From: Methylococcaceae bacterium
GTDB taxonomy: Bacteria > Pseudomonadota > Gammaproteobacteria > Methylococcales > Methylomonadaceae
Reading direction: 5' to 3'
DNA: 64,000 bases
Assembly: GCA_037130115.1 (NCBI GenBank)
Contig: JBAXTQ010000003.1
Coordinates: 430-64,429, forward strand
Shown in pieces: positions 18,895 through 46,208 of this stretch. Position numbers and translations under genes: made by a program. Every line of letters begins with the position of its first letter. Position 1 is the first letter of the stretch. The notes beneath the pieces were generated by a model, which was not told the DNA's origin, did not search any database, and saw nothing but the letters and a program-made list of their open reading frames with translations.

Positions 18895-18997
18895 GGCAAA
18901 ACCGGGCTGAATCTAAATAAGTCATCATGCTACAACTAAAGCGAGATTATACAAATAGTTATTGGTTTACGAACGAATCAGTCTTGAGAAAAGATTT

Positions 18998-20314
18998 CTA
19001 TACGACTTTCCCTTCCTTGATAAACTCGCGCAGGATAGCGGTTTCCAACCGTTTAAAGTCGATATAAAGCGATTGGTTGGCCAAAGCTTCTACTGCACAA
19101 TAATGCATGACATTGATGATGCCTGCACCGGTTAGCTCGAAACGGGCTGCTATGTGTTGCCAGTCAATATCAACGGCAATTTCGATTTGCGGGGGAAAGG
19201 CTTTGCACCAGATTTGATAACGTTCTTCTGGCCGGGGCATTGGAAAATGAATGAAGGACTGAAAGCGCCTGGCAAACGCATCGTCTATATTACCGCGTTG
19301 ATTAGTGGCTAATATCACCAGTCCGTTGTAGGTTTCGATGCGCTGTAACAGATAGGCGACTTCCTGGTTAGCATACTTATCATGGGCATCGCGGATGTCG
19401 GTTCGTTTGCCGAAGAGAGCATCGGCTTCGTCAAAAAATAAGATCCAGTTTTTATGCTCGGCTTTATCGAAAAGTTTTGACAGGTTTTTTTCCGTCTCGC
19501 CAATATACTTGGACACTACCCGCGAAAGGTCAATGCGGAATACATCTTTGCCGGTGTATTTACCCAGTAAAGACGCCGTCAACGTTTTACCCGTACCGGG
19601 GGGGCCGTAAAACAGGGCACGGTAACCGGACTTTAACTTTTTGTGCATCCCCCAATCCTGCAACAGGGTATCGTTGTAGGTGATCCAGTTTTCAATTTCT
19701 CGAATATTTCTCAGGGTATTGGGGTGCAACACCAAATCTTCCCATTCCATTTCAGTTTCCAAAGGCTCTGCGGGGAAATCCATGCTAAAACGTGGTTTGC
19801 TGACCACACCAGTGGTCAGCAACTCAATCACCTCAGAATCCGTTATTAACCGCCCGCTCATCAATGGCTCACCTGCGGGCATGGCTTCCAGCCAGAGAAT
19901 ATGTTGTTTGGCAAACCAATGTTCACTGCTTAGCATCGCTTGCACGATTAGCCGTTTTTCCAGATTATCACCTGCCAAAATAAACTGTGCCGTTTCGCCA
20001 GTCGGCAAAATACCTCTATGATGCGTCGCTTTCGCGCCGCCAAATTCAGGAAAATCGCCGCCATCAGGCAGGTATTCAGTAATCAGTTGTGCGAAAAAAT
20101 CAGGTTTTAAACTAGGCGCAAGAGCCAGCATCAACAACACAAATTCTTCATAATCGGGATTGTGAATAGCGATAAAACCTGCCAAGCCAAAATCTTCGTT
20201 ATAAAATTCCAGTGGGGCAACGGTAAAATCATCAGCGTTTTTGTTCAAACGGTTTTTGATGATAGCGTGTAGCCAATCTAGGGCAAGTTGAAGATTGATG
20301 GCGTTATGATTCAT
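18998..20314 (-). CDS. eCIS AAA+ ATPase (Afp15/Pvc15-like)
   Basis: GPPGTGKT, ILFFDEAD, VVSKYIGETEKNL, RYANQEV-like motif; last gene of the eCIS operon. Confidence 0.9.
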   Translation of the reverse strand: MNHNAINLQLALDWLHAIIKNRLNKNADDFTVAPLEFYNEDFGLAGFIAIHNPDYEEFVLLMLALAPSLKPDFFAQLITEYLPDGGDFPEFGGAKATHHRGILPTGETAQFILAGDNLEKRLIVQAMLSSEHWFAKQHILWLEAMPAGEPLMSGRLITDSEVIELLTTGVVSKPRFSMDFPAEPLETEMEWEDLVLHPNTLRNIREIENWITYNDTLLQDWGMHKKLKSGYRALFYGPPGTGKTLTASLLGKYTGKDVFRIDLSRVVSKYIGETEKNLSKLFDKAEHKNWILFFDEADALFGKRTDIRDAHDKYANQEVAYLLQRIETYNGLVILATNQRGNIDDAFARRFQSFIHFPMPRPEERYQIWCKAFPPQIEIAVDIDWQHIAARFELTGAGIINVMHYCAVEALANQSLYIDFKRLETAILREFIKEGKVV

Positions 20315-20344
20315 GGGATTTAAGGTACGCCTAATGTTTAATAT

Positions 20345-23300
20345 TTAATTTACCAATGTATCAATATTTTGTGCTGCAATTTGAGATTCACCAGTAACAA
20401 TACGTCCACTGATTTCTTTTATTAATATATCTTTATCGGATTTTGGTGCCTTTAGCTCTGTAATATCAGTCCAGTAGGCAGATGAAGGGGCTGCAACTGA
20501 TTTCATAGCTTGAACATCACGGTTAAGATCAATTTTGATTTGTTGAATAACAATTTTTCGTTGATCGACCTTAGTTTTACCTATCAGGTTTGGCTCGATT
20601 GTATTAATAAACGATTGTTTTGTTACGTTGCCCTTCCCACCGAAAGTACTACCTGCCATATGACGAATTGAATGTAAATTGATGGCATATCCTTCTTTTG
20701 CTCGTCCTAACGCACGCTTAGCTAATTGACCTGTTTCGGTAAAAGAACCAAATTCGGCTGCCGCTTGTAATATTGCAGCTTGAGGTTGGTGATCAGCTGT
20801 AAAACCATCACCTTTGGGTTTTGGTATTGAGCTATAAGTTCCCGTTAGACCTTCAAGCAAATATTTTTCGCGTGTATTCTTAATTGAAGAATCGTTACCA
20901 ACTAATGCAGACAATGCTCTTGATACACCAACATTTTTCTCCAATAAACTATTTTGCATGGGTTGCAGTGTTGCTTCGTCTTTGCCAGCTTTTTGTGCTA
21001 TTTCAATTTGTGTAATAACAACCTGCGCAGCAGAAATTGCCGTTCTTGCATTGGTAATTTTTGACGCATTATCTGCTTTGAAACTTGGATTCTTCTTCTC
21101 TTTTTCGTTGAGATAAAACTCCAAAAATTGTTCTACTGCCATTGGTTGACTAGCAATTGTGAGTTTTGGAGTATTATTTTCTATTTTAATAAAAATAGAG
21201 TGACTATGACCATCATCATCTTGAAAACTGCTCTTTGAATTAGCCCAATTAAAAACTTTGTTGGCTGTTGATTTGATTGCACCGCCTATCTTCTGCAATA
21301 ATCCCCCCAGCCACGCCACAATCTTATCCAAGCCTTTATCAATCGGAGAACGAATTTTCTTAATGATACCAACGATTTTTTCAGGAATGTCACCTAGCCC
21401 CGCAAATTTAGCTAAGAAAGCGATAATAATGGTTAAGGTATTCGCCATAGTTTGTTCTACTTTTTTGGCAGCACCATCGATTTGACCAGAGGCTATTGCC
21501 GCAATGGAATCGATGAAAGAGGCAACAACAGCAGCAATTTGCTTGATTTTTTCCACGAAGAAAGTGATGGTTTTGTAGATAGCAATAATAGCCTGAATGA
21601 CCGCGCCAGCAGGATTGAGCATACTGACTAATTTGACGACCGCCGCTTTAACGACTTCGGTGGTGATCATTTCGGTGACTTTAGTGATTAATGAGTCTTT
21701 AAGTTCGCTGAGTTCTGTCTTGATTTGTTCCCAAGCGGCAACAGGGCCGTCTTTTACCAAGGTTACCAGAATGCCTGCGGTTTTTTCCAGACCTGTCAAA
21801 ATGGGTTCTGGAATAATTTTGACTAATTTGGTGCGAATGTTTTGCCATGTTAAGCCCAGTATCGACAGCACTAATTTAATGATTTCCATCAAATCAAAGG
21901 ATTTGGGAATATAAACACCAGCCTCACCTAAAGGTCCTGTAATCCATTTAATCAGTGCCGTTTTTAGATGTGTGCCGATATTATTAGCGAACATTTGAAA
22001 ACCCAGTTTTCCCGCACGAACTAGGTTGCCAACAAAACCGATGGGATTTTTGATGATGGTTTGAAACGCGTTTTGGGCTTTTTTGATGTAAGGCACAGCA
22101 TCGGGTGCAACGACGGAAAAAATAATTTCCAGCAGACTAATAACCTGCGCACCTGCCCAATTGAGAAACTCGCCAGCGATACCGAGGAAAGCTTTACCAA
22201 CTTTGCTAAACACACCGACGATAGTGATAACATCTTGCCAAGTAATGGAACTAATCGTTGCAATAATTTGAGCGGGAATCGCCCGAACAAATGCCATCAA
22301 GCCTGCTAACGCCCCTTGAAACCAAGCCCATGCACGCGCAACTGCGTTGCCTTTTTTGATATTTTCCCAGATTTCTTCCTGTCCGATGAGTTTCATGAAA
22401 CCACCGATTAGGGTCTCGGCGGTGCGCGGTACTGGATCGCCAGTAACGGGGTCTTGTCCTAATACAGCTTTGAGTAAATCATAACCTGCCGTGCCTTCTG
22501 CCATTTTAGCTAATGGTCTTAACACGGCTTCTTTAACCAGTTTCATAATGCCAATGGCAACGCCAGCGGCAAAGGAAATAAGTCGCCCAATAGGGTTGGT
22601 GAAAATGCTTTTTGCGCGTTCCCAAACGCCGCTTAAGTCAAATATATCCGTCCAACTCAGTGAATCCATGAAACGCTTTAGACCTGCAACAATATCGGAG
22701 CCAATATCACCCAGTGTGGCGATTTGTTGTTCAACCCATGCACCTGCTTTGGTCAAAACCCCGTGATTATTCAATGCTTGGGTAATGAGTACGCCGCCTG
22801 GAATTAGCTCGATTAATCCTTTAAGGATATTGGCGGCACTACGATCAACGCTACGTCGATTGATTGGATTGAAGCCTAGTAATACCGTCAATAAGGTGAA
22901 ACCAGGAATAAAACCGGCTTTATCGGCAAAATAATCCAGTGCGTCCTGCATACCTAAGCGTTGTATAGATGGTGGTGTCGTGGTGGTGCTGACTTGTGGG
23001 CTACGCTGAACGGCATGACCTTGTTGAATGGTATGCGTGAGTTCATGCGCTAAAAGTTGTTTGCCTTCGCTGGCACCGGGTTGATATTGATCACGGGAGA
23101 AGAAGATGTGGTTTTGATGAGTGAACGCTCTGGCACTTAACTGATTGTTTAAGCTGGCGGATTCTGCATCATGATGGACGCGCACGTTGCTGAAGTCGGC
23201 GTTGAAACGCGGATCCATGTAACTGCGTACATCACTGGACAGCGGTTGACCGCCTGAGGTTTTGTTTTGAATGGCTGATTGTACATTGGCACTCACCGCT

Positions 23301-23680
23301 GGAACGCCAGTTCCGTCTCGTTGCAGTTTTTCTTCGCTAGCAGGGGCTTTTTGAATTTTGTCTTCTTCTTTCTTCTGGATTTTTTCCTCTGGCATTGCCG
23401 CTTTTTGGATTTTATCATCTTCCTTTTTTTGTATTTTCTCTTCTGGTTTACGCTGTATTTTTTCTTCTTTTCCAGCGGCGGGTGTTGGCATACGCATGAT
23501 TTTATAAGCCATGCTGTCGGCTTCTTGTTCGAATTTATCGCCTGGTTTATTAACCGCCAGTTTCATTTGTATAGTAGGCGCGAAAAAATTGCCACCACCT
23601 GCTTTGGCAAAAAAGGGCTGTGCCGCTTGGGTAGCGGTTTTCGATGGGGTGCTTGATGATTTTTCCGCGCTGGTTTTCAT
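20345..23680 (-). CDS. DUF4157 (eCIS-core) polymorphic effector with variable C-terminal toxin-like domain
   Basis: KLAVNKPGDKFEQEAD, GGQPL...F.ADFSNVRVH...ARAFT...HIFF...LLAHELTHTIQQ (DUF4157, HExxH); long helical mid-region; AT-rich C-terminus with DHQP...H...TFGG. Confidence 0.85.
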   Translation of the reverse strand: MKTSAEKSSSTPSKTATQAAQPFFAKAGGGNFFAPTIQMKLAVNKPGDKFEQEADSMAYKIMRMPTPAAGKEEKIQRKPEEKIQKKEDDKIQKAAMPEEKIQKKEEDKIQKAPASEEKLQRDGTGVPAVSANVQSAIQNKTSGGQPLSSDVRSYMDPRFNADFSNVRVHHDAESASLNNQLSARAFTHQNHIFFSRDQYQPGASEGKQLLAHELTHTIQQGHAVQRSPQVSTTTTPPSIQRLGMQDALDYFADKAGFIPGFTLLTVLLGFNPINRRSVDRSAANILKGLIELIPGGVLITQALNNHGVLTKAGAWVEQQIATLGDIGSDIVAGLKRFMDSLSWTDIFDLSGVWERAKSIFTNPIGRLISFAAGVAIGIMKLVKEAVLRPLAKMAEGTAGYDLLKAVLGQDPVTGDPVPRTAETLIGGFMKLIGQEEIWENIKKGNAVARAWAWFQGALAGLMAFVRAIPAQIIATISSITWQDVITIVGVFSKVGKAFLGIAGEFLNWAGAQVISLLEIIFSVVAPDAVPYIKKAQNAFQTIIKNPIGFVGNLVRAGKLGFQMFANNIGTHLKTALIKWITGPLGEAGVYIPKSFDLMEIIKLVLSILGLTWQNIRTKLVKIIPEPILTGLEKTAGILVTLVKDGPVAAWEQIKTELSELKDSLITKVTEMITTEVVKAAVVKLVSMLNPAGAVIQAIIAIYKTITFFVEKIKQIAAVVASFIDSIAAIASGQIDGAAKKVEQTMANTLTIIIAFLAKFAGLGDIPEKIVGIIKKIRSPIDKGLDKIVAWLGGLLQKIGGAIKSTANKVFNWANSKSSFQDDDGHSHSIFIKIENNTPKLTIASQPMAVEQFLEFYLNEKEKKNPSFKADNASKITNARTAISAAQVVITQIEIAQKAGKDEATLQPMQNSLLEKNVGVSRALSALVGNDSSIKNTREKYLLEGLTGTYSSIPKPKGDGFTADHQPQAAILQAAAEFGSFTETGQLAKRALGRAKEGYAINLHSIRHMAGSTFGGKGNVTKQSFINTIEPNLIGKTKVDQRKIVIQQIKIDLNRDVQAMKSVAAPSSAYWTDITELKAPKSDKDILIKEISGRIVTGESQIAAQNIDTLVN

Positions 23681-23702
23681 CTTTTTCTACTCATCGTTAA
23701 GA

Positions 23703-25529
23703 TTAATAGTTCCACTCTACCCACAGCATTCGTTGCGTCCAAGGCAGTTTTATCATGGATATGCCCCAAGGGAGTTGATTTAACAGTATATCAACAGTTT
23801 TGTTTTCAACTTGCAGCAACCAGTCGCCATCATCACGCACCGATAATTTGCCGAATCTGAGTAGAAACTCGCCGCGTAAACCATCGATACTGGTGTTGCG
23901 TAACGCATCCCAATGACGAATGACGGCGTTAAGCAGGGCTTCGGCTTCTTCTATTTCGGAGTCGCTTAGTTCCATATCGGATTCAACAGGTGTGTCTAAC
24001 GGAATATTGCACAGAATTTTGGACAAAGTCAGTTCATATTCGGGAGCAATGCGTACTCCTGTGGTTAAAAAATGTAGCAGACAAAGAGCGCGTTCGGGCT
24101 GTATGAGTTGGTCTTCTTCGGCAACGCCTAAGGCGGTAAAAAATTGCGGCAAAAAAGGGTGTAATAAAATCAGCCCTGAGTTTTCGATATAAATACCGCC
24201 TTTAATATCGGCGGCTTGGAATGCTGTTTTTGTGGTTGGTAGTTTTTTTTGCAAATCTAACGATTCGTTGGTATCAGTCTGTTTAAAAGGTTTTACCGAA
24301 TCGGTCATTGGCAAGTTTTCTTGCTCATGGTCAATAGTAAGCTTATTTGTTGAATCTGAGGGCTGAATGATAGGTGCGCTAGATAGCGGTTTTAGTTTTG
24401 GTGAATGTGTGCTTGTTATAGCCGCTGACCAATGACGTGCTAATAAATTTTCTAACGCAGCTGTCTTAACCACCAATGCTTGCCAAGCTTCGGCAATAAC
24501 GGCATTTTCAGTCACGGTTTTGCCCGTTGCAATAAAAGTAAATACGGTTTCCCATAATTGTTGTTCAAATTGTTTCACCACGACAGGAGGCGCGTCTGAA
24601 TTTTGCAATAGCACTAAAATAGCGACTATGACTTTTTGGCTTTCGGGTGAAAGTTGCGTTACTAAATTAGTCATTAATGACGGTGAAAACTGACTGACTA
24701 AGCGTTTTCTAGTTGTTTCTGAGGCTAATAGCGTATGAATAATTACAGGGTGAGTATCAAGTAGCGCGTTTTCCAATGTGTGTTGTTGGCTGTTCGATAG
24801 ATTCAGTGTCTGCCACGCTTCGGTAATAATAGCGGTTTCGCTTAGGGTTTTACCCGTTGCGATGAAAGCAAATAAAGTTTCCCATAGTTGTTGTTCAAAT
24901 TGTTTCACCGCTGTATCTGGGTTTTGCTGTACCGACAATATTGCGGTGATGATTTTTTTGCCTTCGAGCGAAAAGTTATCCAGTAAGGTGGTCATAAACA
25001 GCGGTAAAAATTGCCTAACCAGGCGTTTTCTTGCGGTTGGCGCGTTTAATGTACTGAGAATAAGACCTTTAGGAATAGTTGCTACGCCGTCTTGCCAAGC
25101 ATCGAGTAGAGTCTGTTCAAAACTTTTGTTTTTTGTCAGTGTTATCGACCAAGGTAAACGCCCAGTATTTAAAAAATAAATCAAGGCTTCGGCTAGGCTT
25201 TGTTGGCTCGTTTTATGGCGAATGTTGTCAGTCGATACTGAGGGTGAACGAGTAAGCTGTTCACGAAGTTTTTTTTCAATAGCCTCTGCAACGACTGCGG
25301 TTAAGTTTTGTTCCCAATGCTCCAGTGTTAGCGCACCCGCATCAATATCCAAGCGGTCAATAGACCAGCTTTCAGAGTCTGCAAATCGATTAAATACTTT
25401 TTCCAGTGTAGGTAATAAATCATCCTGACACCATCCTGATAATCGATTTTGTAATAGCCAAGCATCCGATTCCACACCGTTAAATTCGATGTGGAGGTGT
25501 TGCTGTTGGATGGTGTGTTGTGAGGTCAT
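23703..25529 (-). CDS. CIS tape-measure protein (Afp14/Pvc14-like)
   Basis: C-terminal IENSGLILLHPFL...HWDALRNTSIDGLRGEFLLR.G...LPWGISMIKLPW...VEW. Likely start MTSQH at 25529. Confidence 0.85.
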   Translation of the reverse strand: MTSQHTIQQQHLHIEFNGVESDAWLLQNRLSGWCQDDLLPTLEKVFNRFADSESWSIDRLDIDAGALTLEHWEQNLTAVVAEAIEKKLREQLTRSPSVSTDNIRHKTSQQSLAEALIYFLNTGRLPWSITLTKNKSFEQTLLDAWQDGVATIPKGLILSTLNAPTARKRLVRQFLPLFMTTLLDNFSLEGKKIITAILSVQQNPDTAVKQFEQQLWETLFAFIATGKTLSETAIITEAWQTLNLSNSQQHTLENALLDTHPVIIHTLLASETTRKRLVSQFSPSLMTNLVTQLSPESQKVIVAILVLLQNSDAPPVVVKQFEQQLWETVFTFIATGKTVTENAVIAEAWQALVVKTAALENLLARHWSAAITSTHSPKLKPLSSAPIIQPSDSTNKLTIDHEQENLPMTDSVKPFKQTDTNESLDLQKKLPTTKTAFQAADIKGGIYIENSGLILLHPFLPQFFTALGVAEEDQLIQPERALCLLHFLTTGVRIAPEYELTLSKILCNIPLDTPVESDMELSDSEIEEAEALLNAVIRHWDALRNTSIDGLRGEFLLRFGKLSVRDDGDWLLQVENKTVDILLNQLPWGISMIKLPWTQRMLWVEWNY

Positions 25530-25540
25530 TGGAATTAGTT

Positions 25541-30184: not shown

Positions 30185-30209
30185 AGCGAAATCACCGTTG
30201 TAAAAAGTT

Positions 30210-38130: not shown

Positions 38131-38131
38131 T

Positions 38132-38401: not shown

Positions 38402-38416
38402 TGTTTATAACCTCTA

Positions 38417-40183
38417 TTAATTAATTTGCACCATGCCACCTTTAATAACGGTAGTGGCACTGCCTTTTATAGTTGTACTCGCTCCAGAGACTTCGGCACT
38501 GCCGCTACCCGATGCCTTGAATGCAGTTTGTGCTTTTAACTCGATATTCATACCTTCAGTTTTGACATCTTTATCAGCTTTTAAACTTAGCTCTTTACTG
38601 CTTTCGATTTTGATGCCACTGTCATTCAAAGTGATTTTGTTACTGTTTTGGTCTTCAAACACGATGCCTTTGTCTTCATCGGAAATGGTGATTTTGTTGC
38701 CGCCTGGTGTTTCTAAAGTGATGATTTTTTTTTCATCATCAAAGGTCAATTTCATTTTTTCGCGGCTGACATAACCTTTACGATGATTATCATCTTTAGC
38801 AGGTTCGGGTGCGGGTTTCGCGCTGCTGTGACACATACCCAAAATCACGGGATAACGCGGATCATCGTTAAGAAATCCGACAATGACTTCATCACCGATT
38901 TCAGGACGAAAAAATGTACCGCGTTGTTTACCTGCATCCAAGGTGGCAATTCGCGCCCAGATACCTTCTTCTGATGTACTAATCATCGGCAAGCGAACTT
39001 TAATACGGTCTTCGCCATCGGGGTCATTTTCCAGTACGGTGACAATGCCAATTTGTAACCCACTCACAGCGGGCAATAAACCTGATGCGGGCAGGGGGCG
39101 AAGATTATGAATCTCGGCGAATAGTTCGGTATTTAATCCGAGTTGCACATCGGTATGCCAATCGCCTTTGGCAAAACTGTGGCGTATGCCGGATACATAG
39201 AGCTTACCTTCAAAGCGTTCGCCGATACCGCTTATTTCAATGACTTTATCTGGCATAACACCCGCAAAGCCTTGGAATTTTGCCCGTCCGCGTACTTTTG
39301 CCAAGCGTTCTTTCAATAACCGTCCATCCGCCCATGCCTGTAATTCGGGTTCGCTGAGTTTGCCGCCGTGTCTGATAATACATGCTTCGCCGCCAATGAC
39401 ATCTGCAAGTTCGCTAGCAGTCAGATTGCCATTATTGGTAGTAGTCGGTTCTTTAGCTTCTGTGCTGACAATTTCCTGATCCGTGGCATTCCAGCTATGG
39501 GCAGTTACGCCTTTGCTTTGCCAGCGGGCATCAATTTCTGCATCCAGTTCCAGCAAGGTTCCGCCATACTGGACTTTAAGCACGGATTGCTCGCCTGTTG
39601 CCGGGGGAGCAACGATAATTTTGCCATTCTCAACGTTAACAATCAGTCCATTGGCTTCTGCGCGACAAACCAGAAAATCCCAGTCACTGGCATCATACTG
39701 GACGATTTCTTTATGGCTGAGAGTAGTCGCTTTGATGTCTTTTTGTAAACCATGCAAATCAATAATGTCTTCCATGATCTCACTGTCTTTTTTGTCAATG
39801 TAATAACGGCTATTTGCACCACTGGTCATTTTTACCGCTTCATCACGGCATTCCAAAATTAGTAAACTACCGCTGTTGCGGATTTTGATGCTGTGTTTAA
39901 CGATAATACCTTTGAATACCGAATCATTATGTGAGCGATAACCGAGTTGGATGTCTATTTTTTTGCCCGGAATAAAATGCGCGGTATTGCTGGCTTTAAA
40001 GGTCGCTTTAGCTGCCTCGCCGTCTTGTAAATGAATCGTGGCTGTAGGAATTCGATTTAACTCTCGTGTCACATAAACAGACAGCACATGAAACTCGCCA
40101 GAGATTTCTGCTCCATCGATGAGAATTGCCGCCGTACAAACATCAGGTGTTGCAGGCGTTGGAATAGTCGATTCGTTGCTCAC
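38417..40183 (-). CDS. VgrG-like spike (Afp8-like)
   Basis: QYDASDWDFLVCRAEANG, DPDGEDRIKV..P...WARIAT, FFRPEIGDEVIVGF..DDPRYPVILG, beta-helix tail. Confidence 0.93.
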   Translation of the reverse strand: MSNESTIPTPATPDVCTAAILIDGAEISGEFHVLSVYVTRELNRIPTATIHLQDGEAAKATFKASNTAHFIPGKKIDIQLGYRSHNDSVFKGIIVKHSIKIRNSGSLLILECRDEAVKMTSGANSRYYIDKKDSEIMEDIIDLHGLQKDIKATTLSHKEIVQYDASDWDFLVCRAEANGLIVNVENGKIIVAPPATGEQSVLKVQYGGTLLELDAEIDARWQSKGVTAHSWNATDQEIVSTEAKEPTTTNNGNLTASELADVIGGEACIIRHGGKLSEPELQAWADGRLLKERLAKVRGRAKFQGFAGVMPDKVIEISGIGERFEGKLYVSGIRHSFAKGDWHTDVQLGLNTELFAEIHNLRPLPASGLLPAVSGLQIGIVTVLENDPDGEDRIKVRLPMISTSEEGIWARIATLDAGKQRGTFFRPEIGDEVIVGFLNDDPRYPVILGMCHSSAKPAPEPAKDDNHRKGYVSREKMKLTFDDEKKIITLETPGGNKITISDEDKGIVFEDQNSNKITLNDSGIKIESSKELSLKADKDVKTEGMNIELKAQTAFKASGSGSAEVSGASTTIKGSATTVIKGGMVQIN

Positions 40184-40935
40184 GTTGCTTTAACAGTTTT
40201 GTCTATCGGTGGAAAAATCAGCTCAGTTCCAGGGAGTAAAGAACGAAAATTGCTCAGCCTATTTACTGTTGCTATTTGTAGATAATATTTCGAGTCTCCA
40301 TAAATGCGTTCGCACATCAATGGTAGAGTATCGCCTGCTTTGACTTTGCGAACATGGGTAAGATCAGCGGATTTTTTATCTTCCTGCAAAGCGCGTTTTG
40401 TCTCTTCGATGCTACTTTTAAACTTTACTTTGGCAACCGCTCGAATCGGCGTACCGTCTGGTTTAAACAGTTTGTAGTTAATACTGACTTCAGTGGCTCG
40501 CCCCTTGAAAATAGAATTTTTCCCCCACACCAGCTTTAAATGACGCGGCTCGTGAGAATCACCTTTGTATTCAAGCAAGGCACGTTTGAATTTTTGAATA
40601 CCTTCAACGATAGAATCTTGCGGATTGCCTTTCCCATCAACAGGTGGGTCACCTTTTTTAGTGCGCCATTCACCATCAATAATGCCCGTACCATCGAATA
40701 AAAATTCAAAAGTCATCTCCAATGGCTCGGTACTTTCATATTTTAATTGCTTACCGCTAGACCCCTGTCCCTGTGCTTCAGCAAATTTAAACCTATATTC
40801 AATGGCATAGCTCTCTGGATTTATTAATGCCTCAAACTTATCATCCGCATTACTGGCAACGCCATCCTCCGCTTTTTGGGAATCAGCGTAAGCCAGAATT
40901 AGCATCTTTTCTAATTTGCCTGTGTCATTAGCCAT
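40180..40935 (-). CDS. CIS tube initiator with LysM domain (Afp7-like)
   Basis: INPESY, F.PDGTPIRA, VKAGDTLPLMCERIYGDSKYYLQIA.VNRL (LysM). Start MANDTGK at 40935. Confidence 0.88.
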   Translation of the reverse strand: MANDTGKLEKMLILAYADSQKAEDGVASNADDKFEALINPESYAIEYRFKFAEAQGQGSSGKQLKYESTEPLEMTFEFLFDGTGIIDGEWRTKKGDPPVDGKGNPQDSIVEGIQKFKRALLEYKGDSHEPRHLKLVWGKNSIFKGRATEVSINYKLFKPDGTPIRAVAKVKFKSSIEETKRALQEDKKSADLTHVRKVKAGDTLPLMCERIYGDSKYYLQIATVNRLSNFRSLLPGTELIFPPIDKTVKAT

Positions 40936-41120
40936 CAGCGTTCCTTTTTGTTTTTCAGTATTTCTAATACCTGTTCGACACATTCGGCAACAATAGTGTC
41001 TTTATCACCACCATGATTATTATTCCCGCCATCACTCGCTGTTGGTTGCTTTGCCGCTTGACCTCCTGATGCGGTATTAACCACGACATGAATATGCAGC
41101 TCTTTTATCTCAATGGGCAT
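40935..41120 (-). CDS. Small CIS protein (DUF5908/Afp6-like)
   Basis: MPIEIKELHI...IVAECVEQVLEIL...ER; coupled to the downstream gene by a TGATG overlap. Confidence 0.8.
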   Translation of the reverse strand: MPIEIKELHIHVVVNTASGGQAAKQPTASDGGNNNHGGDKDTIVAECVEQVLEILKNKKER

Positions 41121-41195
41121 GACTACGTTTCCACTTATATTAATCCACTGCGTAAGGTACGGATTTTTATCCGCACAGTGCGAATGAATTCGCGC

Positions 41196-41645
41196 CTACA
41201 AAATACTGAAATAGCGATAAGTCAATTCCAGTGTTTCAATAACAACCGCACTTTCATTGGCATTCAAATCACTGACCAGCCATTTTTTTGGAATGGCATG
41301 AACGATATTCCAAGTGCGTAACGCTTCACTTTTTTCGTTCATTAAAATCACACTTATATCCGCTGGTTTAAATGCCCGATGATTAAACGCATCCAGAAAC
41401 CAATTCAGCACGGTCGAGTCGGTCAGCATACCGCGCTTTAATACCAAATCGGCGTATTTAGTCCGCACGGGCAGTTTGTGTTCAAAACGATTTTCGCCGC
41501 CTTCTTTAAAAGGTTCGTAATCATATTCAACCGTTAAACCCGATACCGTCTGAAAACGTACATCATTTTTGCCTTCGCCTATACCAAAGGTCACTTTGTA
41601 GTAAAACCCTAGCGGCGGATAGTAATCAATCATTTTTTCTGACAT
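41196..41645 (-). CDS. CIS tube protein, gp19-like (Afp5-like)
   Basis: YYPPLGFYY, FQTVSGL, EGGENRFEHKLP.R.KY.DLVLKRG, IETLEL.Y. Confidence 0.92.
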   Translation of the reverse strand: MSEKMIDYYPPLGFYYKVTFGIGEGKNDVRFQTVSGLTVEYDYEPFKEGGENRFEHKLPVRTKYADLVLKRGMLTDSTVLNWFLDAFNHRAFKPADISVILMNEKSEALRTWNIVHAIPKKWLVSDLNANESAVVIETLELTYRYFSIL

Positions 41646-41662
41646 ATCGGGCTTACCAGTAT

Positions 41663-42100
41663 TTAGACTTTCATTAATTTCAAACCTTCATGCGCCACTT
41701 CAATGCTTTCTACCGCAATTTCATTGGCATCCGATTTAAGGTCGGGAGCCGTGACCTTGACCGGAAAACAGCGGGCGGCCGTCCATGCGGCGACCGGCAC
41801 GTGTTTTTCGTTGAGTAGCCGAATAGTCAAGTCCCGACGTTTTTCAACGCGCTCGTTGGCGATTTCATCCAGCCAGGTGTTATAGTCAAAATCACCTTCA
41901 AATTTACCGCGTTTTAAAGTGATGTTGGCATTTTTGACCATACCCGGCATGGCGATTTTATTAAAATCCTTGCTGTCGCTGTGTCGGTATTCGATTTTTT
42001 CTCGTTCCATAACCAGTCCTGTGACTTCAGTAAAACTGATTTTCGCGCCACCCCAGTCAACCTGAAAATGAAACCGTGGAATTGGATATTCTTGTGCCAT
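41663..42100 (-). CDS. CIS inner tube protein, gp19-like (Afp1-like)
   Basis: YPIPRFHFQVDWGG, FTEVTGL, ITLKRG, FPVK..APDLKSDANEIAVESIEVAHEG. Confidence 0.93.
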   Translation of the reverse strand: MAQEYPIPRFHFQVDWGGAKISFTEVTGLVMEREKIEYRHSDSKDFNKIAMPGMVKNANITLKRGKFEGDFDYNTWLDEIANERVEKRRDLTIRLLNEKHVPVAAWTAARCFPVKVTAPDLKSDANEIAVESIEVAHEGLKLMKV

Positions 42101-42135
42101 GATAATTATCCTTTAAGCTTGATGAATGGATAGTG

Positions 42136-44496
42136 TTAGGATTCAGCCATTTTGTGCGAGAACTTGAGAATGATAAATTCAGCAGGACGCACTGCCGCCA
42201 TACCGATTTCAATAATCATGCGGCCTTCGAGGATGTCCAGCGGCGTCATGGTTTTGCCCAAGCCCACCGCCACATAAAACGCATGTTCCGGTTTTATGCC
42301 TTGTAAAGCGCCCTGCCGCCAGAGCGTAGTCAGGAAATTTTCGATCATAGCTTGAATTTTCACCCAGGTGTTGGCGTCGTTCGGCTCAAACACAAATTGC
42401 TCGGTGGCTTTTTTAACGGACTCTTCCACAAAATTGAAGAAACGCCGCACACTGATATAGCGCCATTCGTTGTCGTTACCGGCCAAGGTGCGGGCGCCCC
42501 ATACGAGAGTGCCTTTACCTGTGAAGGAACGAATAATGTTGATGGATTTGCCGGCATTGACATCGACGTTGTACCCACCTTGCTGCTCGTGGCTTATTTT
42601 TACGGCAGGGCTGATGACAGCGTTAAGGCTGACATTGGCAGGCGCTTTCCAGACACCACGATCACGATCAACGGCGGCATAGACACCGGCAATAGCGCCG
42701 CTAGGAGGAAGAAGATTGAGTGCTTCGGCGGCCTTGGATACTATATTTTTATAGGCCCCAAAGCTATTGAGCAAGCCTTCATTAAATTTTTTCTCATACT
42801 CTGCTGCTGAATTTTGGGCAAAACGAAATAGAGCAATTATTGAATCACTCGCTTTCATAGCAGCATTTTTAGCGAGATCGGCGGCTGCTTTTGCAGCCCC
42901 AGCAAGTGCTTCAGCTGCCGCTGACTGCACATCAATGGCTGTTGCTGCTACTTCATCTGCCGCCGCCTTTATATTTGCTGTTACTTGCGGATTTTCTACC
43001 GCTGCATCTTCTGCTTTTGCTTTTGCATCAGCTGCTCTTTTTTTTGCCGTGATTGCTGTTGTTAGATTTTTATCTACGGTCAATACAAGTTCAGCGGCCG
43101 TTAATACATCTGCCGCAGCTGATACAACTGTAGCGGCGTCTGGTACCTGTATGTTTGCTGCAACTGCTTTAACTTTTGCTTTATCTGCTTTAACTTTTGC
43201 TGTAACCAATGCGTTAAGAGCTGTTGCGTTATAAGCATTCTCAATTGAAACGTCGGAGATGGTTTGGAAATTAGCAAAGTTTGCATAACCTAGCAATGGA
43301 ATACCTTTAACCAAATCGGAAGTCAGACCGTCAGAAAAAATAAAGGTTTTTCCGTTATCGTCTTTACGCAAATAATTGTAATGCGCTGCAAGTACATCAA
43401 ACACCTTTTTCAGTTGGGAGCTTGCCAGATACTGATCAATATCAGTCTTTAAAATAAAATCTTTAGTTTTCCCCGTAGGCACGGCATCTTTAGAACTATG
43501 AATATCAGGCAATCCTTCAACCATGATTTTTACATCAGCAAGAATAGTTGCCAATAGATCATAGATACCTTTCAATGCTACCTCGTAAGCTGTAATGTCT
43601 CCTTGGGAGGGTTTAAGGGCGTTATAGGCATCGGATTTTAACTTCAAAATATCCTGCCATTTTTTATCAGCAGCTGACCCTGGAAATTTAGATTCAGCGT
43701 CTTTCAATAAATCAACCGCCTCTTCTGCTTTTTTAACGTCATTCAATATTTGTAAAATTGCTTTGTCAGTCGTGAGGCTGTTCAGTTTTACGTTTTCTCC
43801 ATTTGTATCACCCCGTTTTATTGTTAAATCCCTATGATAAACAAATCTCGGCAGGCTTGAATTAATCCAGGGTCCATAGGCCGCTCCATATTTAAGATAG
43901 TTAATCCCTATACCGTTTCGTAAGGCCTGTACATTCACACCAAAGTCTTTGTCAGTATTAATCACATCACAGACTGTTACCCTGTCTTGTAGCTTGTTAC
44001 ATTGGGTTAATGCCTCAACTTGAACGTCATACAAATCAGTGAGGCCTGTTAAACTAACAGCATCCGGAAAAAGTAGAATAGTGGGTTCGTCTTCTATTTC
44101 GAGCTTTTTGATACCCTCAATCAATTTATCCTTGGCGATGGTGTCATCATAGCTGCCCACTGATACGATATAGGCGTTTCCGCCGCCGTTGGCATAAAAA
44201 AGCCTTAAGCTGTCGTAAAGTAAAAAGCCTTGTTCCTTCTTTGCGTCCACATAAGCATCATTGTTGTCTAAATAAACTTCCATTTTCTGTGGCGGGGCAC
44301 CGCCAAACATTTCCTCAAATTCAGCAATGGATTCAATGCGGGTCGGTTTATCGAGGAGCGATTCATTTTTCTTTAAGGCCTTCTCCGTATACCCGATAAA
44401 CGCCGGTATCGCAGTCTCCACTGCGGCAATGGAGGGTGGGAATTTGGGAATCTCTTCGACATAGACTCCGGGAGTTTTATAAGCTGTTGCTGCCAT
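42136..44496 (-). CDS. CIS sheath protein with large internal insertion
   Basis: YKTPGVYVEE, YGAAYGPW, PPSGAIAGVYA..D..RGVWKAPAN, VWGARTL, WRYISVRRFF, FEPNDANTW, VRPAEFI. Confidence 0.93.
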   Translation of the reverse strand: MAATAYKTPGVYVEEIPKFPPSIAAVETAIPAFIGYTEKALKKNESLLDKPTRIESIAEFEEMFGGAPPQKMEVYLDNNDAYVDAKKEQGFLLYDSLRLFYANGGGNAYIVSVGSYDDTIAKDKLIEGIKKLEIEDEPTILLFPDAVSLTGLTDLYDVQVEALTQCNKLQDRVTVCDVINTDKDFGVNVQALRNGIGINYLKYGAAYGPWINSSLPRFVYHRDLTIKRGDTNGENVKLNSLTTDKAILQILNDVKKAEEAVDLLKDAESKFPGSAADKKWQDILKLKSDAYNALKPSQGDITAYEVALKGIYDLLATILADVKIMVEGLPDIHSSKDAVPTGKTKDFILKTDIDQYLASSQLKKVFDVLAAHYNYLRKDDNGKTFIFSDGLTSDLVKGIPLLGYANFANFQTISDVSIENAYNATALNALVTAKVKADKAKVKAVAANIQVPDAATVVSAAADVLTAAELVLTVDKNLTTAITAKKRAADAKAKAEDAAVENPQVTANIKAAADEVAATAIDVQSAAAEALAGAAKAAADLAKNAAMKASDSIIALFRFAQNSAAEYEKKFNEGLLNSFGAYKNIVSKAAEALNLLPPSGAIAGVYAAVDRDRGVWKAPANVSLNAVISPAVKISHEQQGGYNVDVNAGKSINIIRSFTGKGTLVWGARTLAGNDNEWRYISVRRFFNFVEESVKKATEQFVFEPNDANTWVKIQAMIENFLTTLWRQGALQGIKPEHAFYVAVGLGKTMTPLDILEGRMIIEIGMAAVRPAEFIILKFSHKMAES

Positions 44497-44529
44497 ATTT
44501 TTCACCGTTTAGTTTTATGATCATAGACA

Positions 44530-45573
44530 TTATTCAAAGATTTCGGAGCGAAGTCCTAGCACTTTGGGCGGAACACTTTCATCGGTTTGAGGTACTACCA
44601 AGCCTTGAGGCGGCTTTTGTTTTTTATTCGGAGCAGGGCTGGCATTGCCAAAAAAAGTCAGTGGTAATGGAGCGGGTTCAACAAAGAATGGCGGGGCATT
44701 TTTACCGGTATTGCCATGATAGTACTGCCATTGCGTTGAGCGGTTTTTAAAGCGAATTTGAAAAACCGGTGCAGGCGTTTTGGCCATGCCTGCCGCTGTA
44801 ATAAAACTGAATTCGTCGTTATCCGTCCTTACTGTCGCCAGGCGAATCAGGGCAAAAACATCATCCGGAATATCCCCTAGTAATAAGCCCTCAGCCGGTA
44901 CATCTCCTTGATGAACGCAAACGGGCATTTCACTGGCTTTAGGGACGATTTCCTGTAGTCCTGCATCGGGTTGATCGCCAATTAATTGCATTAAGGCATC
45001 GCCCATTTGCACTAACGCTTCGGCCGGGTCGTCATCGGATAAAAGCGGATTCCGAATCGGAATGGGCTTGGATAAATATAAGGTTTTTTTAGAACCATCC
45101 TCGGATAAATACAAGGGTTTATTAGGGTCACCAGTCCTTGTCTCCCCCGTCAAATTGGATAAAACCGCCACGTTTTTTTTATACCGCCAAGTTTTATTTT
45201 CGGCTTTCTGATAGCGTTCGATAATAGGTTGAGGTCGAATTGTGAGCGCGGTATAGTTGAAAAAATCAGGATTTTTTACCGTAAGCACAAATTCAAATTG
45301 CATATCCTGAGGTAATACCGATAGCTTAGGTGCCATCACTACAAAACCCAGCGCTGTGTTTTTGAAGATACAACCAAAACCCGACAACGATTTGGCTGTA
45401 GTTGGCGTCGGTGCAATAGATAAAAACTGGCGGACATCATAACTGCTTAAATGTTGCTCCGACAAATTCTTGGCTAGCGTATCAAATAATTCTTTGCCAT
45501 TATCCAGCCAATAGTGATGAAGAATATGTACCTGAAATAATTTCTGGTAGCTGTGGCTTAAGCGTTCGCTCAT
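44530..45573 (-). CDS. CIS-associated protein, probable cap adaptor (Alg16B-like position)
   Basis: LFQVHILHHY..D and F.IRFKNRST.W.Y; lies between DUF4255 and sheath, coupled to DUF4255 by an ATGA overlap. Confidence 0.55.
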   Translation of the reverse strand: MSERLSHSYQKLFQVHILHHYWLDNGKELFDTLAKNLSEQHLSSYDVRQFLSIAPTPTTAKSLSGFGCIFKNTALGFVVMAPKLSVLPQDMQFEFVLTVKNPDFFNYTALTIRPQPIIERYQKAENKTWRYKKNVAVLSNLTGETRTGDPNKPLYLSEDGSKKTLYLSKPIPIRNPLLSDDDPAEALVQMGDALMQLIGDQPDAGLQEIVPKASEMPVCVHQGDVPAEGLLLGDIPDDVFALIRLATVRTDNDEFSFITAAGMAKTPAPVFQIRFKNRSTQWQYYHGNTGKNAPPFFVEPAPLPLTFFGNASPAPNKKQKPPQGLVVPQTDESVPPKVLGLRSEIFE

Positions 45574-46208
45574 GAGTTTACCGCCGGATTTTTGTGGTAA
45601 AAATCACTGACAACTTCAGTAATAACGCTGCGTTCGCTTTGTACTGCGCTGAATTTTAGATCCAGCATTCGTAGCGTGTATAAAACAAAGGGGTACTGCT
45701 TGCCACCTAACGTACCCCATAAGTGGTTGACTTCTTCCATCGTCGGAGAATACAAATCAAAAATGAGTTTGAAAGATTCTAATCGATCAAGCTCATTATC
45801 GGGGCAATCTTTGGTAATGGAGTCTGGTTTAACATTATCTTGAGTAAATACATTCTTGAATTGAAAAAACCGAATGGCTCTGGACAACACTAGTAAGGCA
45901 TTGGTGTACGTGGGGTGAGTCGCGGCAATTAAAATCTGAAAGTTGAGAAAAACCGGCGGGTTTTCATAAATGGTGGTTAACGTTATGTCATTACGCACAT
46001 GATTAGGAAGATTTTTTAGGGTTTTTTCTTCCTTGATGTTCACCATAGACAAGATCAGTTTATTTCTTAAATCTGCCTCGGCAGTAACACCCTCTGCAAG
46101 ATTACCCAATTTTACTGTTGTAGGATCGCCTAATTTACCCAAGTAATAAGTATCATCAATATGTGCATACAGTTCATTTATCACGATGGTCAAAGCATGG
46201 GATATCAT
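45570..46208 (-). CDS. DUF4255 CIS cap/terminator protein (Afp16/Pvc16-like)
   Basis: LSMVNIKEE..LKN, NPPVFLNFQIL, LWGTLGGKQYPFVLY; first gene of the operon. Confidence 0.88.
   Translation of the reverse strand: MISHALTIVINELYAHIDDTYYLGKLGDPTTVKLGNLAEGVTAEADLRNKLILSMVNIKEEKTLKNLPNHVRNDITLTTIYENPPVFLNFQILIAATHPTYTNALLVLSRAIRFFQFKNVFTQDNVKPDSITKDCPDNELDRLESFKLIFDLYSPTMEEVNHLWGTLGGKQYPFVLYTLRMLDLKFSAVQSERSVITEVVSDFYHKNPAVNS

What the first reader, a model, noticed from the sequence alone, without database searches (positions are those of the whole stretch)
18998..46208. Complete Bacteroidetes-style eCIS in a probable methanotroph
Seen: 16 co-oriented, often stop/start-overlapping genes: cap (DUF4255), cap adaptor, one sheath, two tubes, DUF5908, LysM initiator, VgrG, PAAR, gp25, two baseplates, giant fibre, tape measure, DUF4157 effector and AAA ATPase. 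There is no capsid, terminase or TssJLM. Known: single-sheath, cap+adaptor loci resemble AlgoCIS/MAC-type systems more than three-sheath Afp/PVC. Inference: horizontally acquired and intact, with target unknown (protist grazers or competitors).
Basis: partly seen in the sequence, partly recalled or inferred. Interest (0 to 1): 0.75.

Follow-up and report, generated by a model that had tools for sequence, protein, structure and literature searches.

The report
Phage-tail injection system in a Methylobacter
A methane-eating lake bacterium (Methylobacter) carries a complete, selection-maintained 16-gene phage-tail-like injection machine of the AlgoCIS type on a 27.7-kb island that its closest relatives lack. 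Such clusters were already catalogued in methanotrophs, so this is a good new example and not a new kind of system.

Summary
Window 18998-46208 holds 16 intact, co-oriented, tightly packed genes that give a full contractile injection system (CIS). They encode cap, cap adaptor, one sheath, tube, tube initiator, plug, LysM initiator, VgrG, PAAR, gp25, Cis11, Cis12, an Alg19-type fibre, tape measure, a DUF4157 cargo and an AAA ATPase.

The closest solved structures are AlgoCIS (clade Ib) and the Anabaena tCIS. The host is a pmoB-bearing Methylobacter MAG.

The cluster is a 27.7-kb island. The closest relatives have an empty site with a 43-45 bp spacer. Only about 10% of Methylococcales species carry a CIS tape measure. 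The sheath nests among Bacteroidota and Chlorobiota sequences, and tube and VgrG are 73-90% identical across phyla.

The transfer is not recent. Base composition is ameliorated, and orthologous islands sit at the same site in other Methylobacter, with swapped modules. dN/dS is 0.02-0.38.

No membrane anchor of the tCIS kind is present. A released, fibre-targeted particle carrying the DUF4157 protein in its tube is the most likely mode, but this is untested. The cargo's activity and the target are unknown.

eCIStem already lists eCIS in Methylobacter, Methylomicrobium and Methylovulum. This is a new member of a known kind, of moderate interest.

The parts
18942..46630 (-). 27.7-kb genomic island (CIS operon plus its about 420-bp upstream region), inserted between the M20 aminoacylase gene and a conserved 450-aa gene
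   Evidence: Nucleotide homology to the empty-site relatives G005, G033 and G001 (92-94%) stops at about 18941 and resumes at about 46676. The empty sites have a 43-45 bp spacer. No target-site duplication, integrase or tRNA was seen.
46209..46630 (-). Non-coding leader of the island, presumed to hold the operon promoter. It contains a terminator-like hairpin (46524-46505) that would end transcription from the upstream 450-aa gene.
   Evidence: No strong sigma-70 or sigma-54 consensus was found, only a weak TTGGAA-N17-TAATTT at about 46433.
45570..46208 (-). Cis16A cap / tail terminator (212 aa, short single-domain form as in Alg16A)
   Evidence: Pfam Pvc16_N, E 1.1e-34
44530..45573 (-). Cis16B cap adaptor (347 aa)
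   Evidence: Matches PDB 7adz_1A, the AlgoCIS cap adaptor, at 1.7e-11, and tCIS All3326 at 0.0015. It lies between cap and sheath. Homologues are present in 38 of 82 related loci.
42136..44505 (-). Single sheath Cis2 (786-789 aa, long form with an inserted domain)
   Evidence: Phage_sheath_1C. Matches AlgoCIS Alg2 at 1.7e-138 and tCIS All3325 at 1.9e-127. Only P0002 and P0003 share the long form.
41663..42100 (-). Inner tube Cis1
   Evidence: Phage_T4_gp19, 3e-41. Matches All3324 at 6e-52 and Alg1 at 8e-49.
41196..41645 (-). Tube initiator Cis5
   Evidence: Phage_T4_gp19, 7e-41. Best match is the AlgoCIS chain 7aeb_Y at 2e-49, then All3323, Pvc5 and Afp5.
40935..41120 (-). Cis6 'plug' (61 aa)
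   Evidence: DUF5908, 1.5e-20. Matches Alg6 at 4e-10 and Asl3322 at 4e-6.
40180..40983 (-). Cis7 tube initiator with a C-terminal LysM-like domain (called start probably 40935, giving 251 aa)
   Evidence: CIS_tube, 2e-50. The C-terminus gives LysM 0.028 and Phage_tail_X 0.0017. Gene call.
38417..40183 (-). VgrG-like spike Cis8
   Evidence: Phage_base_V, 8e-22, and Phage_GPD, 2e-8
38132..38401 (-). PAAR spike tip Cis10
   Evidence: PAAR_motif, 1.3e-18
37687..38130 (-). gp25-like sheath initiator Cis9
   Evidence: GPW_gp25, 7.5e-25
33863..37690 (-). Baseplate wedge Cis11 (1275 aa, gpJ-like with large extensions)
   Evidence: Baseplate_J, 2e-5. It is 45-51% identical over its full length to Smithella, Geomonas, Chlorobiaceae and Saprospiraceae homologues.
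30210..33875 (-). Baseplate wedge Cis12 (1221 aa). It lacks the tCIS membrane-connector extension and has its own inserts at aa 183-305 and 937-1175.
   Evidence: Matches All3315 at 1.3e-108 and Alg12 at 8.6e-97.
25541..30310 (-). Alg19/Cis19-type tail fibre (up to 1589 aa; the true start may be the ATG at 30184). The N-terminal shoulder and neck are conserved. The C-terminus carries Ig/SprB-like repeats.
   Evidence: Matches 9wt0_a (Alg19) at 1.4e-52 and All3314 at 1.8e-49. Weak SprB and PKD hits. The role of Alg19 is taken from bioRxiv 10.1101/2025.10.08.681156.
23703..25580 (-). Tape measure Cis14
   Evidence: CIS_TMP, 4e-127
20345..23680 (-). DUF4157/eCIS_core protein (1111 aa), the presumed lumen cargo. 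Layout: disordered repeat N-terminus, an HExxH domain at aa 146-222, a long helical linker, and a variable C-terminal domain from about aa 800.
   Evidence: eCIS_core, 1.3e-29. The G022 homologue is 78% identical only over aa 1-800. The C-terminal family has a conserved TADHQPQAA...N...RH motif. The cargo role is inferred by analogy with Cgo1/Cgo2 (PMC8894135).
18998..20314 (-). AAA+ assembly ATPase Cis15
   Evidence: AAA, 8e-30

Best explanation
The locus is an intact contractile injection system of the AlgoCIS/tCIS lineage (clade Ib of the Afp/PVC-like CIS). It sits on a 27.7-kb island in the chromosome of a freshwater Methylobacter.

Inferred working, by homology with AlgoCIS:
- The Cis6 plug, VgrG-PAAR spike and Cis7/Cis5 initiators nucleate a baseplate built from gp25, Cis11 and Cis12.
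- The tape measure sets the tube length.
- One sheath protein polymerises around the Cis1 tube.
- Cap and cap adaptor terminate the particle, and the AAA+ ATPase assists assembly.
- The 1111-aa DUF4157 protein is loaded into the tube lumen.

The particles most likely float free in the cytoplasm and are released by lysis of a subpopulation. They would then bind a target cell through six trimeric Alg19-type fibres with Ig-like tips, contract, and expel spike and cargo. The more likely target is another bacterium, as for AlgoCIS, but a protist is not excluded.

The island came from the pool of such systems that circulates among Bacteroidota, Chlorobiota and Desulfobacterota. It entered Methylobacter long ago and persists as a presence/absence polymorphism at one chromosomal hot spot, with exchange of modules (sheath plus adaptor, fibre, cargo tip).

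What is shown: gene content, homology, island boundaries, phylogeny and purifying selection. What is inferred: assembly, release, cargo loading and target.
For: - Gene set: complete by Pfam.
- Solved relatives: AlgoCIS and tCIS chains are the best solved matches for nine proteins, including the clade-typical cap adaptor, plug and Cis19 fibre.
- Frames: all 16 are open and closely packed.
- Selection: dN/dS is 0.02-0.38 against the orthologous island L104.
- Empty sites: G005, G033 and G001 have empty sites, with flanks 91-96% aa identical.
- Same-site islands: G022, G016 and L104/L105 carry islands at the same site.
- Distribution: CIS_TMP occurs in 31 of 301 Methylococcales species genomes.
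- Phylogeny: the sheath is nested in a Bacteroidota/Chlorobiota clade with 100% support.
- Cross-phylum identity: tube is 90% and VgrG 73% identical to Chlorobiaceae.
- No anchor: no TM helix in any of the 16 proteins, no Cis13 gene, and no tCIS Cis12 extension.
- Published analogues: DUF4157 proteins are lumen cargo in AlgoCIS, and Alg19 binds bacterial cells (PMC8894135; bioRxiv 10.1101/2025.10.08.681156).
Against: - No expression or particle data.
- No lysis cassette and no recognisable promoter in the island.
- Clade Ib also contains cell-attached systems (Amoebophilus T6SSiv, tCIS) that cannot be told apart by gene content. A Cis19 homologue is also present in the anchored tCIS.
- The cargo's C-terminal domain has no Pfam, PDB or fold match, so neither its activity nor the target is known.
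- No immunity gene follows the cargo gene.
Confidence: 0.68

Rival explanations
1. It is the same machine but does not act as a released particle. It could work from inside the cell in one of three ways: attached to the cytoplasmic membrane like the Amoebophilus T6SSiv, attached to the methanotroph's intracytoplasmic membrane stacks as tCIS is attached to thylakoids, or free in the cytoplasm and mediating stress-induced cell death like the Streptomyces CIS.
For: - Clade Ib mixes eCIS and cell-attached systems among very close relatives (PMC8894135).
- Cis12 matches the tCIS All3315 slightly better than Alg12, and the fibre matches All3314.
- The host has thylakoid-like membrane stacks (general knowledge of type I methanotrophs).
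- The island has no lysis genes.
- Cis12 carries two unexplained inserts, and the sheath carries a lineage-specific insert.
Against: - The two tCIS anchoring features are absent. There is no Cis13 and no TM helix in any protein, and the All3315 region 613-1146 is replaced here by 94 residues.
- The fibre has an Ig-rich tip like Alg19, which binds target cells.
Confidence: 0.2
2. The cluster is a silent or decaying relic of an old transfer and makes no functional particles.
For: - No promoter consensus upstream.
- No expression data could be obtained.
- Most species of the genus lack the island.
Against: - All 16 frames are intact over 27 kb.
- dN/dS is 0.02-0.38 for 11 genes against an orthologous island, with dS of 0.23-0.98.
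- The identical sheath protein is found on 7 contigs from several metagenomes.
Confidence: 0.08
3. It is the tail module of a defective prophage, or an R-type tailocin, and not an Afp/PVC-like CIS.
For: The sheath, tube, gp25, gpJ and VgrG folds are shared with myophage tails.
Against: - The island boundaries are mapped, and it holds no capsid, portal, terminase, integrase, holin or endolysin.
- It has the CIS-specific markers CIS_TMP, Pvc16_N, DUF5908, eCIS_core and the AAA+ ATPase.
- Pyocin and T4 sheaths match only at E 1e-5 to 1e-6, against 1e-138 for AlgoCIS.
Confidence: 0.03

Closest known systems
AlgoCIS of Algoriphagus machipongonensis (clade Ib eCIS; PDB 7adz, 7aeb, 7aef, 9wt0)
   Same: It has the same part list: short cap plus cap adaptor, one sheath, Cis1 and Cis5 tubes, Alg6 plug, LysM Cis7, VgrG/PAAR, gp25, Cis11/Cis12, Alg19 fibre and DUF4157 cargo. 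It is the best or second-best solved match for every protein tested.
   Different: - The host is a gammaproteobacterial methanotroph, not a marine Bacteroidota.
- The sheath is about 95 aa longer.
- Cis12 is about 290 aa longer, with its own inserts.
- There is one DUF4157 protein, not two, and its C-terminal domain is unrelated and unannotated.
- No particles have been seen.
Thylakoid-anchored CIS (tCIS) of Anabaena PCC 7120 (PDB 7b5h, 7b5i)
   Same: It shares the cap adaptor (All3326), plug (Asl3322), Cis19 (All3314), and the tube and Cis12 cores, which match as well as or better than AlgoCIS.
   Different: The anchoring features are missing here: no Cis13 with a TM helix and no Cis12 extension.
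eCIS loci catalogued in methanotrophs by eCIStem (Methylobacter luteus IMV-B-3098, M. marinus A45, Methylobacter sp. BBA5.1, Methylomicrobium buryatense 5G, Methylovulum miyakonense HT12, Methylomagnum ishizawai; PMC8213781 supplement)
   Same: Same order or genus of host and the same system type. The genus Methylobacter was reported as enriched (5 of 15 genomes, q 3.8e-4).
   Different: Those are other species, from the mesophilic clade, and I did not compare them at sequence level. None has been characterised. This locus belongs to the boreal-lake, psychrophilic Methylobacter cluster.
Same-site CIS island of Methylobacter sp. S3L5C (G022, CP076024)
   Same: It sits at the same chromosomal site, between the 450-aa gene and the M20 gene, in the same gene order. 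Identities: tube 95%, VgrG 80%, AAA 78%, and DUF4157 aa 1-800 at 78%.
   Different: - It has no cap adaptor.
- Its 607-aa sheath belongs to another lineage.
- Cis11 is 40%, the fibre 31-36% and the tape measure 47% identical.
- It has a different cargo tip and extra small genes around the cargo.
Afp (Serratia entomophila) and PVC (Photorhabdus), clade Ia
   Same: They share the core parts and the numbering scheme (Afp1-16).
   Different: - They have three sheath genes.
- Their cap is a long two-domain protein, with no adaptor.
- Their fibre is Afp13-type, adenovirus-like.
- Matches are much weaker (sheath 1e-58 to 1e-64, Cis12 1e-17 to 1e-23).

Membership tests
Afp/PVC-like CIS superfamily (eCIS sensu dbeCIS/eCIStem) | Contractile sheath plus gp19-type tube | tested here: met
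Afp/PVC-like CIS superfamily (eCIS sensu dbeCIS/eCIStem) | Baseplate and spike set: gp25, gpJ-like Cis11, Cis12, VgrG, PAAR and the LysM/CIS_tube initiator | tested here: met
Afp/PVC-like CIS superfamily (eCIS sensu dbeCIS/eCIStem) | CIS-specific accessory genes: CIS_TMP tape measure, Pvc16_N cap, AAA+ ATPase (Afp15-like), DUF4157/eCIS_core | tested here: met
   Pvc16_N 1e-34. CIS_TMP 4e-127, AAA 8e-30, eCIS_core 1e-29.
Afp/PVC-like CIS superfamily (eCIS sensu dbeCIS/eCIStem) | No phage head or packaging genes and no T6SS membrane complex (TssJLM) in the cluster | tested here: met
   The island boundaries are mapped, and all 16 ORFs inside are assigned to CIS parts.
Clade (subtype) Ib: AlgoCIS, MAC, tCIS, T6SSiv | Phylogenetic placement with reference Ib members | tested here: inconclusive
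   No reference-set tree was built. AlgoCIS and tCIS are by far the best solved matches for sheath, tube, Cis5, Cis6, Cis12, the fibre and the adaptor. An Algoriphagus sp. sheath lies in the same 83-row family tree.
Clade (subtype) Ib: AlgoCIS, MAC, tCIS, T6SSiv | Cap adaptor (Cis16B) next to a short single-domain cap | tested here: met
   The adaptor matches Alg16B at 1.7e-11 and All3326 at 0.0015. The cap is 212 aa, against 197 aa for Alg16A and 293 aa for Pvc16 (PMC8894135).
Clade (subtype) Ib: AlgoCIS, MAC, tCIS, T6SSiv | Single sheath gene, Cis6 plug and Cis19-type fibre | tested here: met
   (one sheath on the contig)
Extracellular mode of action (true eCIS) | Particles free in the cytoplasm, released, and binding targets by their fibres | not testable with these tools
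   Only indirect evidence: no TM helix or anchor and an Alg19-like fibre.
Thylakoid-type anchored CIS (tCIS) | Cis13 tail-fibre-like protein with a C-terminal transmembrane helix | tested here: not met
   There is no such gene, since gene spacing leaves no room for one. The highest 19-residue hydropathy mean is 1.83, with no TM-grade segment.
Thylakoid-type anchored CIS (tCIS) | Cis12 extension (All3315 aa about 610-1100) that forms the wide membrane connector | tested here: not met
   The alignment jumps from All3315 residue 612 to 1147, while the query has only aa 745-838 in between.
Canonical T6SS | TssJ/L/M membrane complex, ClpV, TssA/F/G/K | tested here: not met
   None is among the 16 genes. 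The ATPase is Afp15-type AAA and not ClpV.
Prophage / R-type tailocin | Head, portal, terminase or a lysis cassette, or closest similarity to phage or pyocin tails | tested here: not met
   (pyocin sheath 2e-6, T4 gp18 9e-6, against 1.7e-138 for AlgoCIS)

The most novel reading that the evidence does not exclude
In lake Methylobacter the CIS is not a simple released weapon. One reading is that the polymorphic, module-swapping cassette at this chromosomal hot spot makes particles held inside the cell, for example on the intracytoplasmic membrane stacks through the lineage-specific inserts of Cis12 and the sheath. Such particles would be exposed or fired on stress or grazing, as a methanotroph counterpart of the cyanobacterial tCIS ghost-cell mechanism. 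The other reading is that the particles are aimed at protist grazers, which control methanotroph populations.
Probability: 0.1. Interest if true: 0.75.

Novelty: new member of a known kind. Interest (0 to 1): 0.4.

Why it matters
Methylobacter is a main methane filter of lakes and wetlands. What limits or protects its populations (competitors, grazers, lysis) affects methane emission.

This analysis gives three things:
- A fully annotated clade-Ib CIS in this ecologically dominant group.
- Evidence that about 10% of Methylococcales species carry such systems, and that this genome carries two.
- Evidence that the island behaves as an exchangeable cassette at one chromosomal site.

It also identifies a tractable experimental entry point: the cultured strain Methylobacter sp. 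S3L5C carries a same-site variant. It does not change what is known about CIS mechanisms.

Tried and rejected
- **Cargo C-terminal domain (aa 801-1111):**
  - Pfam gave nothing.
  - The PDB sequence search of the whole protein gave no hit.
  - The AlphaFold model from a 17-sequence alignment had mean pLDDT 69, but below 50 across the conserved motif.
  - Foldseek against the PDB gave no match at E <= 0.001.
  - The HNH-like reading of the D-H...N...R-H motif therefore stays a guess.
- **Promoter scans:** no sigma-70 site passed the tool's threshold and no sigma-54-like site was found.
- **Mobility signatures:** no target-site duplication, integrase or tRNA at the island ends.
- **Compositional anomaly:** island GC is 0.424 against 0.445 for the genome. 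The tetranucleotide distance is not an outlier, since 9% of genome chunks lie further out. Recent transfer from a distant donor is rejected.
- **Membrane anchor:** no TM segment was found.
- **The 450-aa gene upstream (46664-48016):** it is not part of the system. It is conserved in 29 of 41 genus genomes whether or not the island is present.
- **Literature:** no paper in the library describes a CIS in aerobic methanotrophs. A 'type VI secretion' cluster up-regulated in a methanotroph gradient study (PMC11072679) could not be linked to a CIS.


Full report
**Observation**

The stretch 18998-46208 contains 16 open reading frames, all on the minus strand, with no internal stops and very short or negative spacers. 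Pfam assigns thirteen of them:

| Family | E-value |
|---|---|
| Pvc16_N (formerly DUF4255) | 1e-34 |
| sheath C-terminal domain | 2.6e-14 |
| Phage_T4_gp19, two genes | 3e-41 and 7e-41 |
| DUF5908 | 1.5e-20 |
| CIS_tube | 2e-50 |
| VgrG (Phage_base_V / Phage_GPD) | 8e-22 / 2e-8 |
| PAAR | 1e-18 |
| gp25 | 7.5e-25 |
| Baseplate_J | 2e-5 |
| CIS_TMP | 4e-127 |
| eCIS_core (formerly DUF4157) | 1.3e-29 |
| AAA | 8e-30 |

The three genes without a significant Pfam hit match solved CIS chains:
- The 347-aa protein matches the AlgoCIS cap adaptor at 1.7e-11.
- The 1221-aa protein matches Cis12 of Anabaena tCIS (1.3e-108) and AlgoCIS Alg12 (8.6e-97).
- The 1589-aa protein matches the AlgoCIS tail fibre Alg19 (1.4e-52) and tCIS Cis19 (1.8e-49).

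- The two 'tubes' are the tube proper (Cis1) and the tube initiator (Cis5).
- DUF5908 is the Alg6/Afp6 'plug'.
- The LysM part of Cis7 is only weakly detectable.

Nothing else is encoded in the island, so there are no head, packaging, lysis or TssJLM genes.

**Host**

The assembly is a 4.4-Mb MAG with 453 contigs, 92% complete. It carries pmoB (E 8e-191).

The M20 aminoacylase next to the island falls in a 90%-identity cluster with the protein of Methylobacter sp. S3L5C. That protein lies on a 4,815,745-bp contig. This is the exact genome size published for the cultured psychrophilic lake methanotroph S3L5C (PMC9723741), and it is the size of handle G022, which is placed in the same genus. 'Probable methanotroph' is therefore right: the host is a Methylobacter of the boreal-lake cluster.

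**Which kind of CIS**

For every protein tested, AlgoCIS and the Anabaena tCIS are the best solved relatives by a wide margin over Afp/PVC:

| Protein | AlgoCIS / tCIS | Afp/PVC |
|---|---|---|
| Sheath | 1.7e-138 / 1.9e-127 | 1e-58 to 1e-64 |
| Cis12 | 1e-97 / 1e-108 | 1e-17 to 1e-23 |

The locus has the features that the AlgoCIS paper singles out for clade Ib (PMC8894135): a short single-domain cap plus a cap adaptor, a plug, one sheath, and DUF4157 proteins. It also has the Cis19/Alg19 fibre. I did not build a tree with the dbeCIS reference set, so clade Ib membership rests on these matches and is not formally proven.

**Island and its history**

Nucleotide homology to the three closest relatives that lack any CIS tape measure (G005, G033, G001) stops at about window 18941 and resumes at about 46676. 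Flank proteins in those genomes are 91-96% identical. There the M20 gene and a conserved 450-aa gene are separated by a 43-45 bp spacer. The insert is therefore about 27.7 kb: the 16 genes plus about 420 bp of leader. No target-site duplication, integrase or tRNA marks the ends.

The same site is filled by a CIS island in G022 (S3L5C), in G016, and in the metagenome contigs L104 and L105. G027 carries a 90%-identical tape measure, but its island and flank genes lie on separate contigs, so its site could not be checked. In two further species the site holds quite different DNA: an IS with small genes in one, and a CorA-like copper protein with a di-haem peroxidase in the other. The site is a hot spot.

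In the genus, about 5 of 37 genomes have a related tape measure. In the order Methylococcales, 31 of 301 species genomes in 15 of 63 genera have a CIS_TMP.

The sheath tree has 83 rows.
- The window sheath groups with two unnamed metagenome proteins and a Chlorobaculum sheath (97% support).
- That group sits inside a 100%-supported clade with Saprospiraceae, other Bacteroidota and G016.
- The same-site sheath of G022 (with a Methylobacter MAG) lies on a long branch elsewhere.
- An AU test rejects monophyly of the same-site Methylobacter sheaths (p 0.022). The group was named after the tree was seen.

G022 also lacks the cap adaptor. Its Cis11, fibre and tape measure are only 31-47% identical, while its tube, VgrG, PAAR and ATPase are 78-95% identical. 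This indicates module exchange within a conserved frame.

Outside the genus the nearest relatives per gene are Chlorobiaceae, Saprospiraceae, Smithella and Geobacter/Geomonas. Tube is 90% and VgrG 73% identical. Those values are too high for vertical descent between phyla.

The island's base composition is not deviant: GC is 0.424 against 0.445, and the tetranucleotide distance is within the genome's range. Orthologous islands differ by dS 0.23-0.98, against 0.19 for the flanking gene.

Taken together, horizontal acquisition from a pool dominated by Bacteroidota and Chlorobiota is well supported. It is old within Methylobacter and was followed by recombination and by loss or replacement.

**Intactness**

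For the 11 CIS genes present on L104, dN/dS is 0.02 (tube) to 0.38 (plug), always below 1. The identical sheath protein occurs on 7 contigs from several metagenomes. The system is under purifying selection in natural populations.

**Mode of action**

Gene content cannot separate released eCIS from cell-attached relatives in clade Ib (PMC8894135). I tested the two features that anchor tCIS to thylakoids (PMC8894136), and neither is present:
- No protein has a TM-grade hydrophobic segment, and there is no Cis13 gene.
- The Cis12 alignment skips All3315 residues 613-1146, the connector extension.

The fibre shares the shoulder and neck with Alg19, which binds bacterial cells and stabilises the pre-firing state of AlgoCIS (bioRxiv 10.1101/2025.10.08.681156). 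It ends in Ig/SprB-like repeats.

I therefore favour a released, fibre-targeted particle (about 0.65-0.7) over an intracellular or anchored mode (about 0.2). Unexplained features remain:
- Cis12 has inserts of its own at aa 183-305 and 937-1175.
- The sheath has a long form shared only with two close relatives.

**Cargo**

The 1111-aa DUF4157 protein has this layout:
- a disordered repeat N-terminus;
- the HExxH eCIS_core domain at aa 146-222;
- a long amphipathic helical linker;
- a C-terminal domain from about aa 800.

The G022 homologue diverges at about aa 800, which is the usual polymorphic-toxin layout described for eCIS (PMC8213781). By analogy with Cgo1/Cgo2, it is the lumen cargo.

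The C-terminal domain has 16 homologues, all unannotated, including proteins from a Bathymodiolus methanotrophic symbiont and a Geomonas. They share an invariant E-x-Y-x-LEG-x-x-GTY ... T-x-DHQ-x-QAA ... N ... RH pattern. This resembles an HNH/His-Me motif, but the AlphaFold model is unreliable exactly there, and neither Foldseek nor sequence searches found a relative. The activity is unknown. No immunity gene follows: 30 bp separate the cargo gene from the ATPase gene.

**Novelty**

No paper in the library describes a CIS in aerobic methanotrophs. However, the eCIStem catalogue already lists eCIS loci in Methylobacter luteus, M. marinus, Methylobacter sp. BBA5.1, Methylomicrobium buryatense, Methylovulum miyakonense and Methylomagnum. 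It reports Methylobacter (5 of 15 genomes) and Methylomicrobium (3 of 7) as enriched genera (PMC8213781 supplement).

The finding is thus a new, well-preserved member of a known kind in a clade where such systems are catalogued but uncharacterised. Three points go beyond the catalogue:
- the mapped empty and filled site polymorphism with module swapping;
- a second, divergent CIS island in the same genome;
- the identification of a cultured strain with a same-site variant.

**Limits**

- There is no reference-set phylogeny.
- The sheath tree used the 'quick' method.
- The AU group was chosen post hoc.
- The MAG is fragmented, so linkage of the second locus's three contigs is inferred.

Noticed in passing
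G000 contigs C406:~3497-17684 (L106), C45:1-10569 (L100), C245 (L107): There is a second, divergent CIS island in the same genome. It encodes cap, adaptor-like protein, a 546-aa sheath, three tube-like genes, DUF5908, LysM, VgrG, gp25, Cis11, Cis12, a tape measure (43% identical) and an AAA ATPase (53% identical). Its sheath groups with Roseivirga, Ignavibacteriales, Chlorobium and Algoriphagus sp. sequences. C406:1-3496 is 96-97% identical to G005 and G033, so the contig is genuinely Methylobacter.
   Followed up: partly
L096 (G063:C1:1411000-1420000) and L097 (G030:C42:26000-33500): The intergenic site between the M20 aminoacylase gene and the 450-aa gene is a hot spot. G063 holds 5.7 kb there, with small unknown genes and a DDE transposase. 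G030 holds a CorA-like Cu(I)-binding protein, a di-haem cytochrome c peroxidase and a HEAT-repeat protein.
   Followed up: partly
L106 (C406) 5314-5456: An approximately 140-bp element is present in many dispersed copies (75-94% identity) across most genomes of the genus. It looks like a MITE or REP-type repeat.
   Followed up: no
window 46560-46600 and 46505-46524: The island's leader contains a GC-rich imperfect palindrome (GAGCGGAGTCGAAGCGAGTTGTCCGCTTCGGCTCGGCTC) and a terminator-like hairpin. Their function is unknown.
   Followed up: no
window 30210-33875 (Cis12), aa 183-305 and 937-1175: There are two inserts absent from both AlgoCIS Alg12 and tCIS All3315. The C-terminal insert is Cys-rich. 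Neither has been assigned a function.
   Followed up: no
L094/L095 (G022 = Methylobacter sp. S3L5C) locus positions 22973-24346 and 27621-28097: The S3L5C variant has three small ORFs (133, 87 and 89 aa) before its DUF4157 gene and a 158-aa ORF after it. These are possible extra cargo, chaperone or immunity genes, and they are absent from the window's island.
   Followed up: no
window 46664-48016: The conserved 450-aa protein upstream of the island has no Pfam family, only a faint ATP-grasp_3 hint (E 0.1). It is present in 29 of 41 genus genomes and is not part of the CIS.
   Followed up: partly
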